Positions 60,901 through 63,900 of a stretch of 64,000 nucleotides of DNA are shown here, piece after piece. Position numbers: made by a program. How positions within the stretch are numbered: position 1 is the first letter of the stretch; the number at the start of each line of letters is the position of its first letter. This DNA comes from Escherichia coli (GTDB lineage Bacteria > Pseudomonadota > Gammaproteobacteria > Enterobacterales > Enterobacteriaceae): NCBI RefSeq assembly GCF_003334785.1, contig NZ_QOWV01000003.1; one strand, written 5' to 3'.

Positions 60901-63900
60901 GGTGGCTCTAATGCGTCTCTGGATGCGATTGAGGTGCTGGCTAACGCTCTGAGCGTTGAGCCGTGGCAGTTGTTAGCGCCTGGCCCATCTGAAGATAACG
61001 ACTCGGAACTGTTGGTTCCATACGCAGCCGATGGTTCCTGTTTTCACCCCGGTTTGGCGAGCACCCGTGATGGTTCGTTTGGCGTAGGTGATAAAGCGGC
61101 TCAGAAGCGTTTTGGCACGTTTGCTGAAGCTCTTGAGTATCTTCGTAGCATGGAGACAGCAAAATGGCGTAGGCCTAATCCTAGCGGCAACTGGGGTATC
61201 GTATCAGCGGTTCGGTGGGACAAACTGAGAAAGTAGCTCAAGTGTAAGTTTATGAATTTTTATGCTGTATGGATGAACAGTATTCATTAGATGCTGATAG
61301 TCTTATGTTTCATCAGCCCTTTGTTTCTATAAGAGTGAATAAAACAGCAAAATGCGGGTGCGTTACGGTGGCGTTTCGCTTTGGCTCTTAATGGCTTAAT
61401 TCATATAAATAACATTGAGTTAAATAGTTATTCTGAACAAGGTCTGCCGGGGTCTAACTGGTTTCAAAATCCGAACGCAGTGGCGTTTATTCAACGTCCA
61501 CATAGCTGACAAATGTTCTTTCCTCCCGACTCGGCAGACCTCCAGAAACATTAAAAGGCAGGTATGGCACGTTGATGTTTTATGCCGCCACGAACACTCG
61601 GTTTGATTCCGTCCAGCGGATCAAACTTAATATGTAGCCCCTAGAACAAAAAGGTCCTACGATTGCTCTCTTAACAGCTAACAGGAACGTGATTACAGCA
61701 GGTTATAGAGACTTAGGTTCGAGTCCGGCCTTCGGCACCAAGTTACTAAATTCCTTACAATACAGTTGGTTAGACGATTAAATCTGTCTCTTTTGCCTGT
61801 AAGAAATGCTCTGTTATGTCCCTTGAAAAAGCCGCTGTGGTTGATAGTGGTAATTGGGATGTTAACTCATAGCGGCGTGTCGTTCCAAGCGTCAAACACG
61901 TACTGACTCAACTTGAAAGCTATGACGTAGCCACCGTCTCTAAACAATCCCAAAACTTTTAGTGCAGCGCATTTTAGCCCGATGCCCCCATTCTGTCGCC
62001 GTCGCGAGACGCCGCAGGGGATAAACAGGTTTATGGTGGTCACGGTACTTGCAGACCATATGCAAGCTCTGCCAGCGGTTCGGCCTCGCTCCCCTTGGGT
62101 ACATGGTCATCCTGATAAGCCTCACTAACTGACATAACCCTGATGAAGTCGCAAGAGGCTCCGCTTGTTGTCTTACCACCAACGGGGCTTTATGGATTCT
62201 ATTGCTTAATATATGATTGTATCAAACTTAGACTGCATAATTTAAACGAACATAACAATCAGGCAGGGGAAGAATGATAAAGCCATTTTCTGTGAGGTAT
62301 GGTCATGTTGACGTTAGAGAGCATGTCCAGCTGAATGATCTTAATTCTGATACACGCATGGCATTGTGGAATTGCTTATATCTTTTCCTTTGGACTAACA
62401 ATCGTCAAACTGCTACAGCAACAAAATGTGCGCAGTCTGTGTGGATATATTATCTAAATCAACCTGCGGATAATATTCCTCGTTATGAAAGTGGATACAA
62501 AAGTGATAAGACGTTGCTGACTGCTATCCGAGATTATATATATGGGGAAGCATGGTATTTGGTATATGATTTAATTGAGTTCATCATTGAGAGAACTAAT
62601 TCATATATTAATCTATCGAAGCATCTCAATTCCATCTTTAAAAAGCATGGCGTTGGTTATACCATAATAAATGGTTGTATTACTCCTATTTCAAATGATA
62701 ACGAAATTGAAAGTGTTCAGAACGCAGTTGATAATGGCACTGATTCATCGCGTAGCCATTTCGAAAGGGCGTTACAACTAATGACGGATAGAGAGCAGCC
62801 AGACTACAGAAACTCGATTAAAGAGTCTATCTCTGCAATTGAATCTTTATGCAGGAAAATCACGGGCAATGATAAAGGAACCTTGGGGGCTTGTCTTAAA
62901 GCTATAGAGGAAAAAGGATATATACACTCTGCAATGAAAGGCGCTTTTAGTCAGCTCTATGGTTATACAAGTGATCAGGGTGGAATACGTCATGCGCTAA
63001 CAGAAGAAGATGTAAATCCTACCTTAGCTGAAGCTAAATTTATGTTAGTCACTTGCAGTGCGTTCAGTAATTATCTGTTGTCAAAAATAAGTGATTAATT
63101 ACAGGTTTATAGTTACGAGTGGGTTAGTTACCCACTCCCTTTAAAATTATTCACCAGACTCTAATCTTTTTTCTCTTTTCTCATCTCTCCTTTTTATTGC
63201 CAAATCGTGTTGCTCTTGCAGATACGTGCGTTCTTCGTTTCTATCGCTTGAAGTATATACGTCTGCTTTTACTTTTTTAGCTCCTTGTGCAATAGGTTTC
63301 CAATCCTCTCTTATACCTTTAATTTGTTCTGCAATTTGCGTCAATGGGCTTCTCGCTCCTAGATAACTTATTCCTTCAAATGTCGCCATGTCATACACAT
63401 ATTCATTTGTTTCTCTATCGTTTGATTTAGGTTTGCTTGCCCAGCTTATATTAATATTATAAATTTGATCTTTGATTTGTTCATACTTACAGAGATTGCT
63501 GGTAAGTGATTGCCCATTTTTTAACACGCTTACCTTACTAAACGGAATCTCACTTTTTTCTCTATGCTCCGCATTTACTAGTGGAGGATCAAACACAACC
63601 TCAACATTATAGGCAGGTGCGTTCCCTGTATTAGCAATGTTAATATCAAAGTAAAAAGCGGCCCAAGGGTTTGGCTCAAGTGTTACAACTATATGGGGTT
63701 GAGCTGATGCGTCAACCATTCTTTTTGTCTCGTCTGCTCTGAAGTGGTGAAGTGGTTTACTGAATTTGGCCACCTGAACAGAGGTGATATGCTCACCTCA
63801 GAACAACACAGGTGCTCCAATGAAAAAAAGAAATTTTAGCGCAGAGTTTAAACGCGAATCCGCTCAACTGGTTGTTGACCAGACATACACGGTGGCAGAT

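What the first reader, a model, noticed from the sequence alone, without database searches (positions are those of the whole stretch)
62274..63773. AbiJ/HEPN-like gene with a convergent partner that runs into an IS911-like end
Just outside the right repeat, an AT-rich 274-aa ORF with a strong RBS has a C-terminal region whose helical pattern and GGIRH motif recall HEPN-type abortive-infection RNases of the AbiJ kind. The convergent 208-aa ORF keeps its frame open upstream into the IS end at 63740, so its 5' end was probably removed by the insertion. This may be a two-gene defence or toxin-antitoxin-like module inactivated by IS insertion. The 61744-62273 stretch upstream has no convincing ORF.
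Basis: partly seen in the sequence, partly recalled or inferred. Interest (0 to 1): 0.65.

Follow-up and report, generated by a model that had tools for sequence, protein, structure and literature searches.

The report
AbiJ-type HEPN gene beside IS-truncated phage moron
An intact, already catalogued but untested single-gene phage-defence candidate (AbiJ-type sensor domain plus HEPN-fold domain) lies next to an unrelated phage membrane-protein gene that lost its first 38 codons at an IS911 junction; the two are neighbours in an E. coli leuX island cargo slot, not a two-gene system.

Summary
ORF 62274-63098 (+, 274 aa, about 37% GC) matches Pfam AbiJ_NTD4 over residues 4-153 (E=3.8e-26). It matches PADLOC candidate PDC-S32 end to end (E=5.6e-104). 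RefSeq already names it "AbiJ-NTD4 domain-containing protein".

The convergent ORF is truncated. Intact homologues are 225-235 aa and have an N-terminal membrane helix. Homology here starts at their residue 39, at the IS911 end. The missing part is not on the far side of the IS cluster, so this was a deletion, not a simple insertion.

The two-gene module idea fails. The partner family (phrog_11802/DUF8453) stands alone in the Z region of two P2-like phages. It lacks an AbiJ neighbour in all genera sampled except Enterobacter. AbiJ-NTD4 homologues in six other contexts lack the partner.

Both genes are cargo of a leuX island family, and a 450-bp, 96-99% conserved non-coding leader precedes the variable slot. 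The finding is ordinary and already catalogued, and function is untested.

The parts
61716..61740 (+). 25-nt copy of the 3' end of tRNA-Leu(CAA) leuX. It is the right-hand repeat of the 7.3-kb island 54427-61740. It is also the point where the older AbiJ-bearing island abuts leuX in other genomes.
   Evidence: Exact repeat at 54402-54426 and 61716-61740, 0 expected by chance. In Enterobacter, Kosakonia and other E. coli the same downstream sequence directly follows an intact leuX.
61741..62190 (.). Conserved non-coding leader of the leuX island family. The variable cargo slot begins right after it.
   Evidence: 96-99% identical in E. coli, Enterobacter and Kosakonia whatever cargo follows. No conserved ORF, no Rfam match, no excess RNA folding (z +0.9 and +0.5).
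62265..62272 (+). Shine-Dalgarno-like AGGGGAAG upstream of the AbiJ-like start codon.
   Evidence: Read directly from the sequence.
62274..63098 (+). Intact 274-aa gene for an AbiJ-NTD4 + HEPN-fold protein (RefSeq WP_000594911.1; PADLOC candidate PDC-S32).
   Evidence: ORF. PDC-S32 E=5.6e-104 over 8-281 of 285 model positions. RefSeq annotation. 4437 homologues.
62283..62732 (+). N-terminal AbiJ_NTD4 domain (residues 4-153), the presumed sensor or regulatory domain.
   Evidence: Pfam PF18863, E=3.8e-26, model positions 2-151 of 152. All 40 aligned homologues match it.
62733..63095 (+). C-terminal, highly conserved helical domain (residues 154-274) assigned to the HEPN fold. It contains the invariant RNSIKES run (179-185), H218 and R239-H240.
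62979..62993 (+). GGIRH (residues 236-240), a variant HEPN arginine motif R239-H240-x3-E244.
   Evidence: G237, R239 and H240 are invariant. Position +5 from R239 is mostly D or E in the 40 homologues, and P0148 has H there. Compared with the motif rules in PMC3710099.
63117..63137 (.). 8-bp-stem hairpin between the two convergent genes, a possible bidirectional terminator.
   Evidence: MFE about -14 kcal/mol, z -2.4 on the + strand and -2.1 on the - strand. The simple terminator scan did not call it because there is no T-run.
63147..63739 (-). 5'-truncated remnant of a phrog_11802/DUF8453 gene. It corresponds to residues 39 to the end of intact 225-235-aa homologues and lacks the N-terminal membrane helix, RBS and promoter.
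   Evidence: Alignment A1. tblastn shows homology starting at residue 39, at nt 63737. blastn to Enterobacter ends at 63738. Hydropathy. RefSeq calls a 190-aa CDS from the internal ATG at 63719.
63740..63924 (+). Left end of an IS911-like element, with an extra TGAAGTGG copy at 63740-63747. Its orfA starts at 63821. It supplies the artificial 12 N-terminal codons of the 208-aa ORF.
   Evidence: Alignment to the annotated K-12 IS911B. 8-bp tandem repeat.
63925..64000 (+). Left end of a second IS3-family element inserted into IS911 orfA. It looks IS629/IS1203-like from memory; this was not tested.
   Evidence: Similarity to IS911B stops at 63924. RefSeq annotates 'IS3 family transposase, programmed frameshift' for the matching element in strain RM10410.

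Best explanation
Two unrelated accessory genes sit side by side in the cargo slot of an island family that integrates at tRNA-Leu leuX.

Gene 1 (62274-63098) is an intact, stand-alone member of a very large family with an AbiJ-NTD4 domain followed by a HEPN-fold domain. PADLOC lists this family as the single-gene phage-defence candidate PDC-S32.

The likely mechanism is inferred from the model proposed for AbiJ-type proteins and was not shown here. The N-terminal domain would hold the C-terminal domain inactive until it meets a phage component. The HEPN domain would then cut RNA and stop the infected cell (abortive infection). The active site would be non-canonical: R239-H240 with an acidic residue at +5, possibly completed by the invariant H218 from the insert between core helices. 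A similar arrangement has been proposed for AbiV and AF0298.

Gene 2 (63147-63739) is a remnant of a membrane-anchored beta-sandwich protein. The same family stands alone in the Z region of P2-like phages, where it is annotated 'lysogenic conversion'. An IS911-associated deletion removed its first 38 codons (the membrane helix), its ribosome-binding site, its promoter and the rest of the island. It is most likely a dead gene.

The two genes are neighbours by co-inheritance, not partners.
For: Gene 1, shown:
- Pfam AbiJ_NTD4 E=3.8e-26 and PDC-S32 E=5.6e-104 over the full length.
- AlphaFold model with mean pLDDT 83.8.
- Invariant R239-H240, H218 and R179-N-S-I-K-E-S.
- No conserved neighbour in six other contexts. 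These include a moron between gpV and gpW of a Pectobacterium prophage.

Gene 2, shown:
- Intact homologues are 225-235 aa and have a hydrophobic helix (Kyte-Doolittle 1.92 versus 0.78 here).
- Homology starts at residue 39, at the IS junction.
- The missing 5' part and upstream DNA are absent from the window and from three E. coli loci that extend past the IS cluster.
- The family matches phrog_11802 at E=1.3e-115.
- It is a stand-alone ORF in the P2-EC53 Z region and in phage R18C, between the tail-fibre assembly and tail-sheath genes.

Independence of the two genes, shown:
- Among 20 loci holding the partner family, only the E. coli block and Enterobacter roggenkampii also hold an AbiJ-NTD4 gene.
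- EPEC E2348/69 has an intact partner in the same island with a different slot gene.
- Kosakonia keeps the partner beside different slot genes, and E. coli TUM20902 carries that same alternative cargo in the slot.

Inferred only: sensing by the N-terminal domain, RNase activity, the abortive-infection outcome, and loss of function of the truncated gene.
Against: - The canonical Rx4-6H HEPN motif is absent.
- Pfam Abi_C and other HEPN models do not match this protein, or any of 40 homologues at E<=0.1.
- Sequence searches of the PDB find no HEPN protein, and Foldseek finds nothing significant.
- No member of this family has a published phage-resistance phenotype in the searched library.
- The truncated gene is kept at >=99% identity in 476 E. 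coli genomes and RefSeq calls it an intact 190-aa CDS. Residual function of a soluble fragment is therefore not excluded.
Confidence: 0.7

Rival explanations
1. The AbiJ-like protein and the convergent protein form a two-gene defence or toxin-antitoxin-like module, and the IS insertion disabled the module by truncating one partner.
For: The same convergent pair, separated by a 47-48-bp spacer, exists with an intact 234-aa partner in Enterobacter roggenkampii. The 2-kb block is about 90% identical between the two genera.
Against: - That shared block is one co-inherited DNA segment, not independent co-occurrence.
- The partner family lacks an AbiJ neighbour in Klebsiella, Kosakonia, Biostraticola, Pantoea, EPEC E2348/69, P2-EC53, R18C and nine more distant loci.
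- AbiJ-NTD4 homologues in six other contexts lack the partner.
- The genes are convergent, with a hairpin between them.
- PADLOC models the family as a single-gene candidate.
- The AbiJ-like gene is carried intact in about 460 E. coli genomes without an intact partner. That argues against an essential antitoxin.
Confidence: 0.05
2. The C-terminal domain is a HEPN-like helical bundle that is not a nuclease. The protein would act by binding, or through another effector chemistry, or it would not be a defence protein at all.
For: The canonical histidine of Rx4-6H is replaced by D or E in nearly all homologues. HEPN families that lost the motif are described as non-catalytic binding domains (PMC3710099). 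No HEPN or Abi_C HMM matches.
Against: - The domain is extremely conserved. R239, H240, H218, R179, N180, E184 and E190 are invariant over 40 sequences down to 39% identity, which suggests an active site.
- AbiV lacks the canonical His in the same way, and a review reports it to be an rRNA-degrading RNase (PMC13064643).
- The gene sits in a slot where another occupant is also a PADLOC defence candidate (DUF3800 = PDC-M04A).
Confidence: 0.2
3. The truncated convergent gene is still expressed, either from the internal ATG at 63719 or as the 208-aa fusion starting in the IS end. It would retain a function as a soluble beta-sandwich protein.
For: The reading frame is intact for 190 or 208 codons. 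It is >=99% identical in 476 genomes. RefSeq annotates it as a normal CDS, named DUF8453 in some records.
Against: - The conserved membrane helix (residues about 12-35, including invariant positions) is gone.
- No Shine-Dalgarno sequence precedes either candidate start, unlike the GAGGGAGA of the intact gene.
- Only 20 nt separate the ATG from the IS-derived sequence, so no native promoter remains.
- Other E. coli lineages carry deeper, different IS truncations of the same gene, which indicates decay.
- The high identity is expected from recent common descent.
Confidence: 0.1

Closest known systems
PADLOC phage-defence candidate PDC-S32 / RefSeq 'AbiJ-NTD4 domain-containing protein' (WP_000594911.1)
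   Same: Full-length HMM match (E=5.6e-104). The protein is identical to the RefSeq entry annotated in hundreds of E. coli genomes, including Nissle 1917 (near-identical WP_000594912.1).
   Different: Nothing differs. This is that family. The family is a computational candidate, and no experimental test was found in the searched literature.
Lactococcus lactis AbiJ and the AbiJ HEPN family of Anantharaman et al. 2013 (Pfam Abi_C, PF14355)
   Same: Same proposed architecture: a variable N-terminal domain (here NTD4, one of the five defined in that paper) followed by a C-terminal HEPN-fold domain. Both are single-gene and island- or plasmid-borne. Two homologues at 56-59% identity carry weak precomputed Abi_C hits.
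   Different: The Abi_C model does not match this protein, or 40 relatives, in the Pfam release used. No PADLOC family other than PDC-S32 matched at E<=1. The paper scores Rx4-6H as conserved in the AbiJ family, but here the motif is R-H-x3-[D/E].
AbiV and AF0298-type (PDB 2hsb) HEPN proteins
   Different: There is no detectable sequence similarity. A review describes AbiV as a type III toxin-antitoxin system with an RNA antitoxin (PMC13064643), but no repeat array or RNA family is found upstream here. Whether H218 is the spatial equivalent of their histidine was not checked.
P2-EC53 Z-region ORF1 'putative lysogenic conversion protein' (CAD54906.1) / phrog_11802 / DUF8453
   Same: 70% identical to the window remnant over 190 residues. 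Same family as the intact Enterobacter and E2348/69 proteins. It is a stand-alone moron in the P2 Z region.
K-12 IS911B (insO) in the KpLE2 region upstream of the fec operon
   Same: Same IS end and orfA, nearly identical from 63760 to 63924. It sits in the same position relative to fec in related E. coli genomes.
   Different: In K-12 the IS is flanked on the left by yjhE rather than by the partner remnant, and it is interrupted by IS30. Here it is interrupted at 63925 by another IS3-family element, and it carries a duplicated TGAAGTGG at its tip.

Membership tests
AbiJ_NTD4 domain family (Pfam PF18863) | Significant match to the PF18863 model over most of its length, at the N-terminus | tested here: met
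   E=3.8e-26, residues 4-153, model positions 2-151 of 152. 40 of 40 homologues match.
PADLOC PDC-S32 (single-gene phage-defence candidate) | Full-length match to the PDC-S32 HMM | tested here: met
   PDLC04997 E=5.6e-104, residues 3-272, model 8-281 of 285. PDLC04996 E=1e-86.
PADLOC PDC-S32 (single-gene phage-defence candidate) | Acts alone: no conserved accessory gene | tested here: met
   Neighbours differ in six sampled contexts in Klebsiella, Enterobacter, Trabulsiella, Pantoea, Pectobacterium and Xanthomonas. This is a small sample, not a census.
PADLOC PDC-S32 (single-gene phage-defence candidate) | Confers phage resistance | not testable with these tools
   No experimental report was found.
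HEPN superfamily | [quoted passage not shown] | tested here: met
HEPN superfamily | Rx4-6H motif at the end of helix 3 | tested here: not met
   The motif is R239-H240-A-L-T-E244. Position +5 is mostly D or E across 40 homologues, with H in P0148. The residue after R is H, which the rule allows (N, D or H).
HEPN superfamily | Metal-independent RNase activity | not testable with these tools
   This needs biochemistry.
AbiJ family proper (Pfam Abi_C PF14355; L. lactis AbiJ) | Match of the C-terminal domain to the Abi_C model | tested here: inconclusive
   No hit at E<=10 for this protein. None of 40 homologues hit at E<=0.1, and there was none for P0133. However, precomputed 'weak' Abi_C hits are on record for P0133 and P0148. 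There is also a weak collinear hit to NCBIfam STM4504/CBY_0614, whose name includes CBY_0614, the paper's NTD4 exemplar (E=0.0063).
Type II toxin-antitoxin or two-gene defence module | The two genes co-occur across unrelated lineages and are co-transcribed | tested here: not met
   The genes are convergent. Only the E. coli block and one Enterobacter locus, out of 20 partner loci, hold both genes. Each gene is found alone elsewhere.
Type III toxin-antitoxin (AbiV, AbiF, ToxIN style) | Tandem-repeat RNA antitoxin gene just upstream of the toxin gene | tested here: not met
   No tandem repeats in 61200-62273. No Rfam match at E<=1. No terminator-like site.
phrog_11802 / DUF8453 (the convergent gene) | Full-length match, including the N-terminal hydrophobic helix | tested here: not met
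   The intact homologue P0040 matches model positions 1-228 of 230 (E=1.3e-115). The window copy aligns only from residue 39 onward and lacks the helix. It is a truncated member.
IS911 (IS3 family) | Terminal inverted repeat and orfA matching an annotated IS911 | tested here: met
   Aligned to K-12 IS911B, bases 63748-63924 match with only five differences: three within the inverted repeat (positions 9-11, TTT versus CAC) and two in orfA. The orfA start is in register.

The most novel reading that the evidence does not exclude
The 4,800-cluster family to which this protein belongs may use a HEPN active site that has not been characterised: R239-H240 with an acidic residue replacing the canonical histidine, completed by H218 from the inter-helix insert and by the invariant RNSIKES helix. 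If so, it would be an untested, very widespread single-gene abortive-infection RNase. It is present in well-studied strains such as E. coli Nissle 1917.

A more speculative add-on concerns the 450-bp, 96-99% conserved leader next to leuX. Together with the island's serine recombinase, it might define a site where cargo genes are exchanged.
Probability: 0.25. Interest if true: 0.5.

Novelty: already known. Interest (0 to 1): 0.25.

Why it matters
The practical value is modest. The work corrects a tempting misreading: a convergent gene pair next to an IS is not a module. It also identifies a convenient, intact E. coli representative of an untested defence candidate family, PDC-S32, with a non-canonical HEPN motif. 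That representative could be tested directly, for example in Nissle 1917 or by transfer to K-12. Finally, it documents that the leuX-proximal slot of this island family swaps cargo behind an almost invariant leader. That may help people who mine defence hotspots.

Tried and rejected
- **Type III toxin-antitoxin reading.** No tandem repeats, Rfam families or terminators lie upstream. Rejected.
- **Small upstream antitoxin ORF.** The 44-aa ORF at 62143-62277 has an ATGA overlap with the AbiJ start. Its frame is broken or cut short in E. coli WP4, Kosakonia and TUM20902, where the same leader precedes other cargo. Rejected.
- **Structured RNA in the 450-bp leader.** Folding z-scores are +0.9 and +0.5 and there is no Rfam hit. 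No support.
- **Sequence-level HEPN evidence.** Pfam on the protein, on 40 homologues and on P0133 gave nothing usable, and neither did PDB sequence profiles for the whole protein or the C-terminal domain. Foldseek against the PDB gave only non-significant hits, although several were HEPN proteins.
- **Search with the C-terminal domain profile.** The aim was to reach other AbiJ architectures. The best 150 of 4810 hits all had the same ~280-aa architecture, so no bridge to canonical Abi_C proteins was obtained.
- **Supplement of the HEPN paper.** The family alignments are not held.
- **PHROGs for the AbiJ-like protein.** No match.
- **Literature on PDC-S32, P2-EC53 and AbiJ-NTD4.** No experimental work found.
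- **Simple IS insertion as the truncating event.** Rejected, because the missing 5' part is not found beyond the IS cluster.
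Full report
**What is in the sequence.** The window end is an E. coli leuX region.
- A 25-nt copy of the leuX 3' end occurs at 54402-54426 (inside the tRNA gene) and again at 61716-61740. These two copies bracket a 7.3-kb island.
- Beyond the second copy lie about 530 bp without a credible ORF, and then a 274-aa ORF at 62274-63098 on the + strand.
- A 48-bp spacer follows, containing an 8-bp-stem hairpin.
- Next is a convergent ORF at 63147-63773, 208 aa with a GTG start.
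- From 63740 the sequence is IS911-derived. Aligned to the annotated K-12 IS911B, the element proper starts at 63748. Bases 63740-63747 are an extra copy of its first eight bases.
- At 63925 a second IS3-family element interrupts IS911 orfA.
- About 460 of 5,426 complete E. coli genomes carry a match covering at least 80% of 61500-64000. Nissle 1917 carries the same gene arrangement.

**The 274-aa protein.**
- It matches Pfam AbiJ_NTD4 over the whole model (residues 4-153, E=3.8e-26).
- It matches the PADLOC single-gene candidate PDC-S32 end to end (E=5.6e-104).
- RefSeq already names it 'AbiJ-NTD4 domain-containing protein', WP_000594911.1.
- The family is large, with 4,437 homologues in the word-indexed search.
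- A profile of the C-terminal domain alone finds 4,810 clusters at 50% identity.

**The C-terminal domain.** The C-terminal 120 residues are the most conserved part. Invariant positions include H162, R173, D177, R179-N-S-I-K-E-S185, E190, H218, G237 and R239-H240.

Sequence methods do not label this domain:
- The Pfam Abi_C model and other HEPN models miss it and its relatives.
- PDB sequence profiles find nothing.
- The only sequence hints are 'weak' precomputed Abi_C hits for two homologues at 56-59% identity, and a weak collinear hit to the NCBIfam STM4504/CBY_0614 family. CBY_0614 is the exemplar used when AbiJ-NTD4 was defined as an N-terminal partner of the AbiJ HEPN domain (PMC3710099).

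Structure is clearer:
- An AlphaFold model has mean pLDDT 83.8.
- Further down come AbiA, Roquin, Csm6, RnlA, HEPN toxins and AbiV.
- Foldseek gave only non-significant hits.
- The tool does not return aligned residues, so assigning the fold to residues 154-274 is an inference. It rests on domain boundaries, helix layout and conservation.

**The motif.** The HEPN paper places Rx4-6H at the end of helix 3. It notes that the residue after R is usually N, D or H. It also notes that some HEPN-T proteins have D in place of H. [quoted passage not shown]

Here the motif is R239-H240-A-L-T-E244. Position +5 is mostly D or E across 40 homologues, with H in P0148. The invariant H218 lies in the predicted insert (helices 204-229). 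The protein therefore looks like an AF0298/AbiV-style variant. A recent review reports AbiV to be an rRNA-cleaving RNase (PMC13064643).

RNase activity for this family remains inferred. So does the sensor-plus-effector model: the N-terminal domain restrains the HEPN domain until a phage component is met. The original authors proposed that model as a hypothesis.

**The convergent ORF.** It has no Pfam or PADLOC match. Its relatives form a compact family of 131 proteins that corresponds to phrog_11802 (E=1.3e-115 for an intact member). Newer RefSeq annotation calls it DUF8453.
- Intact members from Enterobacter, Klebsiella, Yersinia, Pectobacterium and alphaproteobacteria are 225-235 aa.
- They begin with a hydrophobic helix, ISTMISAFAALLTAVATFFLWRV. 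The Kyte-Doolittle maximum is 1.92 for them, against 0.78 for the window ORF.
- In the window, similarity begins at residue 39 of the intact protein, at nt 63737-63738. That is exactly where IS-derived sequence takes over.
- The first 12 codons of the 208-aa ORF are read from the IS end.
- The missing 38 codons and the upstream DNA are absent from the window. They are also absent from three E. coli loci that continue past the IS cluster to the fec operon. The event was therefore an IS-associated deletion or rearrangement, not a simple insertion.
- Other E. coli lineages carry different and deeper IS truncations of the same gene.
- A model of an intact member (mean pLDDT 82.9) shows a long N-terminal helix, a seven-strand beta-sandwich and two C-terminal helices. 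It has only generic Ig-like structural matches.

**Are the two genes a module?** No.
- HMM searches of 20 loci holding the partner family found an AbiJ-NTD4 gene in only two settings: the E. coli block (three loci, one of them mislabelled as a Collinsella MAG) and Enterobacter roggenkampii. The Enterobacter block is about 90% identical in DNA to the window over 61716-63738. It is therefore the same inherited segment.
- The partner family stands alone in the Z region of phage P2-EC53 and in P2-like phage R18C, between the tail-fibre assembly and tail-sheath genes.
- It also occurs without AbiJ in Klebsiella, in Kosakonia and, intact, in EPEC E2348/69.
- Conversely, AbiJ-NTD4 homologues lack the partner elsewhere. 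They sit directly after an island integrase in Klebsiella, Enterobacter, Trabulsiella and Pantoea. They sit between baseplate genes of a Pectobacterium prophage, and in an unrelated Xanthomonas neighbourhood.
- No tandem repeat or known RNA family lies upstream that could serve as an RNA antitoxin.

**Context.**
- The 450 bp at 61741-62190 are 96-99% identical in E. coli (630 genomes), Enterobacter and Kosakonia. Wherever the adjacent sequence was examined, they directly follow leuX.
- Sequence diverges right after this leader, according to the cargo carried:
  - the AbiJ-like gene;
  - a 190-aa protein with a canonical-looking RNALAH motif plus a DUF3800 protein that matches PADLOC candidate PDC-M04A;
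  - a 304-aa unknown protein;
  - a 182-aa unknown protein.
- A resolvase and a DEAD/DEAH helicase follow in the complete islands. In the window, everything beyond the partner's residue 39 has been replaced by the IS911-fec junction.
- The leader has no conserved ORF and no sign of a structured RNA. It is most simply the tRNA-proximal arm of the island.

**Verdict.** The truncation of the second gene is right. The module interpretation is wrong. The AbiJ-like gene is already annotated and catalogued as an untested candidate, so novelty is low. The most useful outcome is a clean, testable E. coli representative of PDC-S32.

Noticed in passing
window 61741-62190: A 450-bp non-coding stretch directly after the leuX 3' repeat is 96-99% identical in 630 E. 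coli genomes, Enterobacter roggenkampii and Kosakonia sp. S29. The genes that follow it differ. It has no conserved ORF, no Rfam hit and no excess RNA folding. It is probably the tRNA-proximal arm of an island family, but its conservation is striking.
   Followed up: partly
L031 7537-9410 (E. coli TUM20902); L008 8628-10052 (Kosakonia); L030 7514-8428; L034 8886-9434: The slot after the conserved leader holds alternative cargo. One is a 190-aa protein with a canonical-looking HEPN motif (RNALAH) plus a DUF3800 protein matching PADLOC candidate PDC-M04A (E=1.5e-21). Others are a 304-aa unknown protein and a 182-aa unknown protein. None of the unknowns matched PADLOC or NCBIfam.
   Followed up: partly
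window 63740-63756: The IS911-like left end carries a tandem duplication of its first 8 bases (TGAAGTGG TGAAGTGG). It differs from K-12 IS911B at positions 9-11 of the inverted repeat (TTT versus CAC). The origin of the extra copy is unexplained.
   Followed up: partly
window 63925-64000: A second IS3-family element (start TGAACCGCCCCGG, orfA MTKNTRF...) is inserted in IS911 orfA. From memory it looks like IS629/IS1203. In K-12, SHP24, RM10410 and Nissle 1917, IS911 is instead interrupted by IS30 further in. In the listed best matches this junction is not contiguous: they align as two pieces.
   Followed up: no
proteins P0029, P0034, P0037, P0038, P0044 (E. coli): Other E. coli lineages carry the same partner allele truncated at different, deeper points and fused to different upstream sequences. 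This suggests repeated IS-mediated erosion of the gene.
   Followed up: no
L007 (JAIJJM010000048.1, 'MAG: Collinsella sp.'): A 9.8-kb contig binned as Collinsella encodes a partner protein 100% identical to the E. coli one and an AbiJ-like ORF with the same HMM score as the E. coli loci. It is almost certainly an E. coli contig mis-binned into an actinobacterial MAG.
   Followed up: no
window 54427-61740: The 7.3-kb island between the leuX repeats encodes an unusually long 650-aa integrase, a NIPSNAP protein, a frameshifted DUF1643 gene, a resolvase, a DUF4062 protein, a membrane protein and a 185-aa HTH protein. The HTH region matches PADLOC 'Control_protein' models (E=1.9e-18). The resolvase-DUF4062-membrane-HTH block recurs in E. 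coli WP4-S18-ESBL-09, downstream of the 450-bp leader and a 304-aa cargo gene. The leuX islands therefore look mosaic or tandem.
   Followed up: partly
L021 (AJ512682, P2-EC53 Z region) 3-115 and 1983-2073: The depositors annotate the stand-alone partner homologue in P2-EC53 as flanked by left and right inverted repeats of about 100 bp. This hints that the moron moves as a discrete cassette.
   Followed up: no
L035 3501-4349 (Pectobacterium carotovorum prophage): An AbiJ-NTD4 homologue (42% identical) is inserted as a single gene between the baseplate spike (gpV-like) and gpW-like genes of a P2-type tail module. This is an unusual moron position.
   Followed up: no
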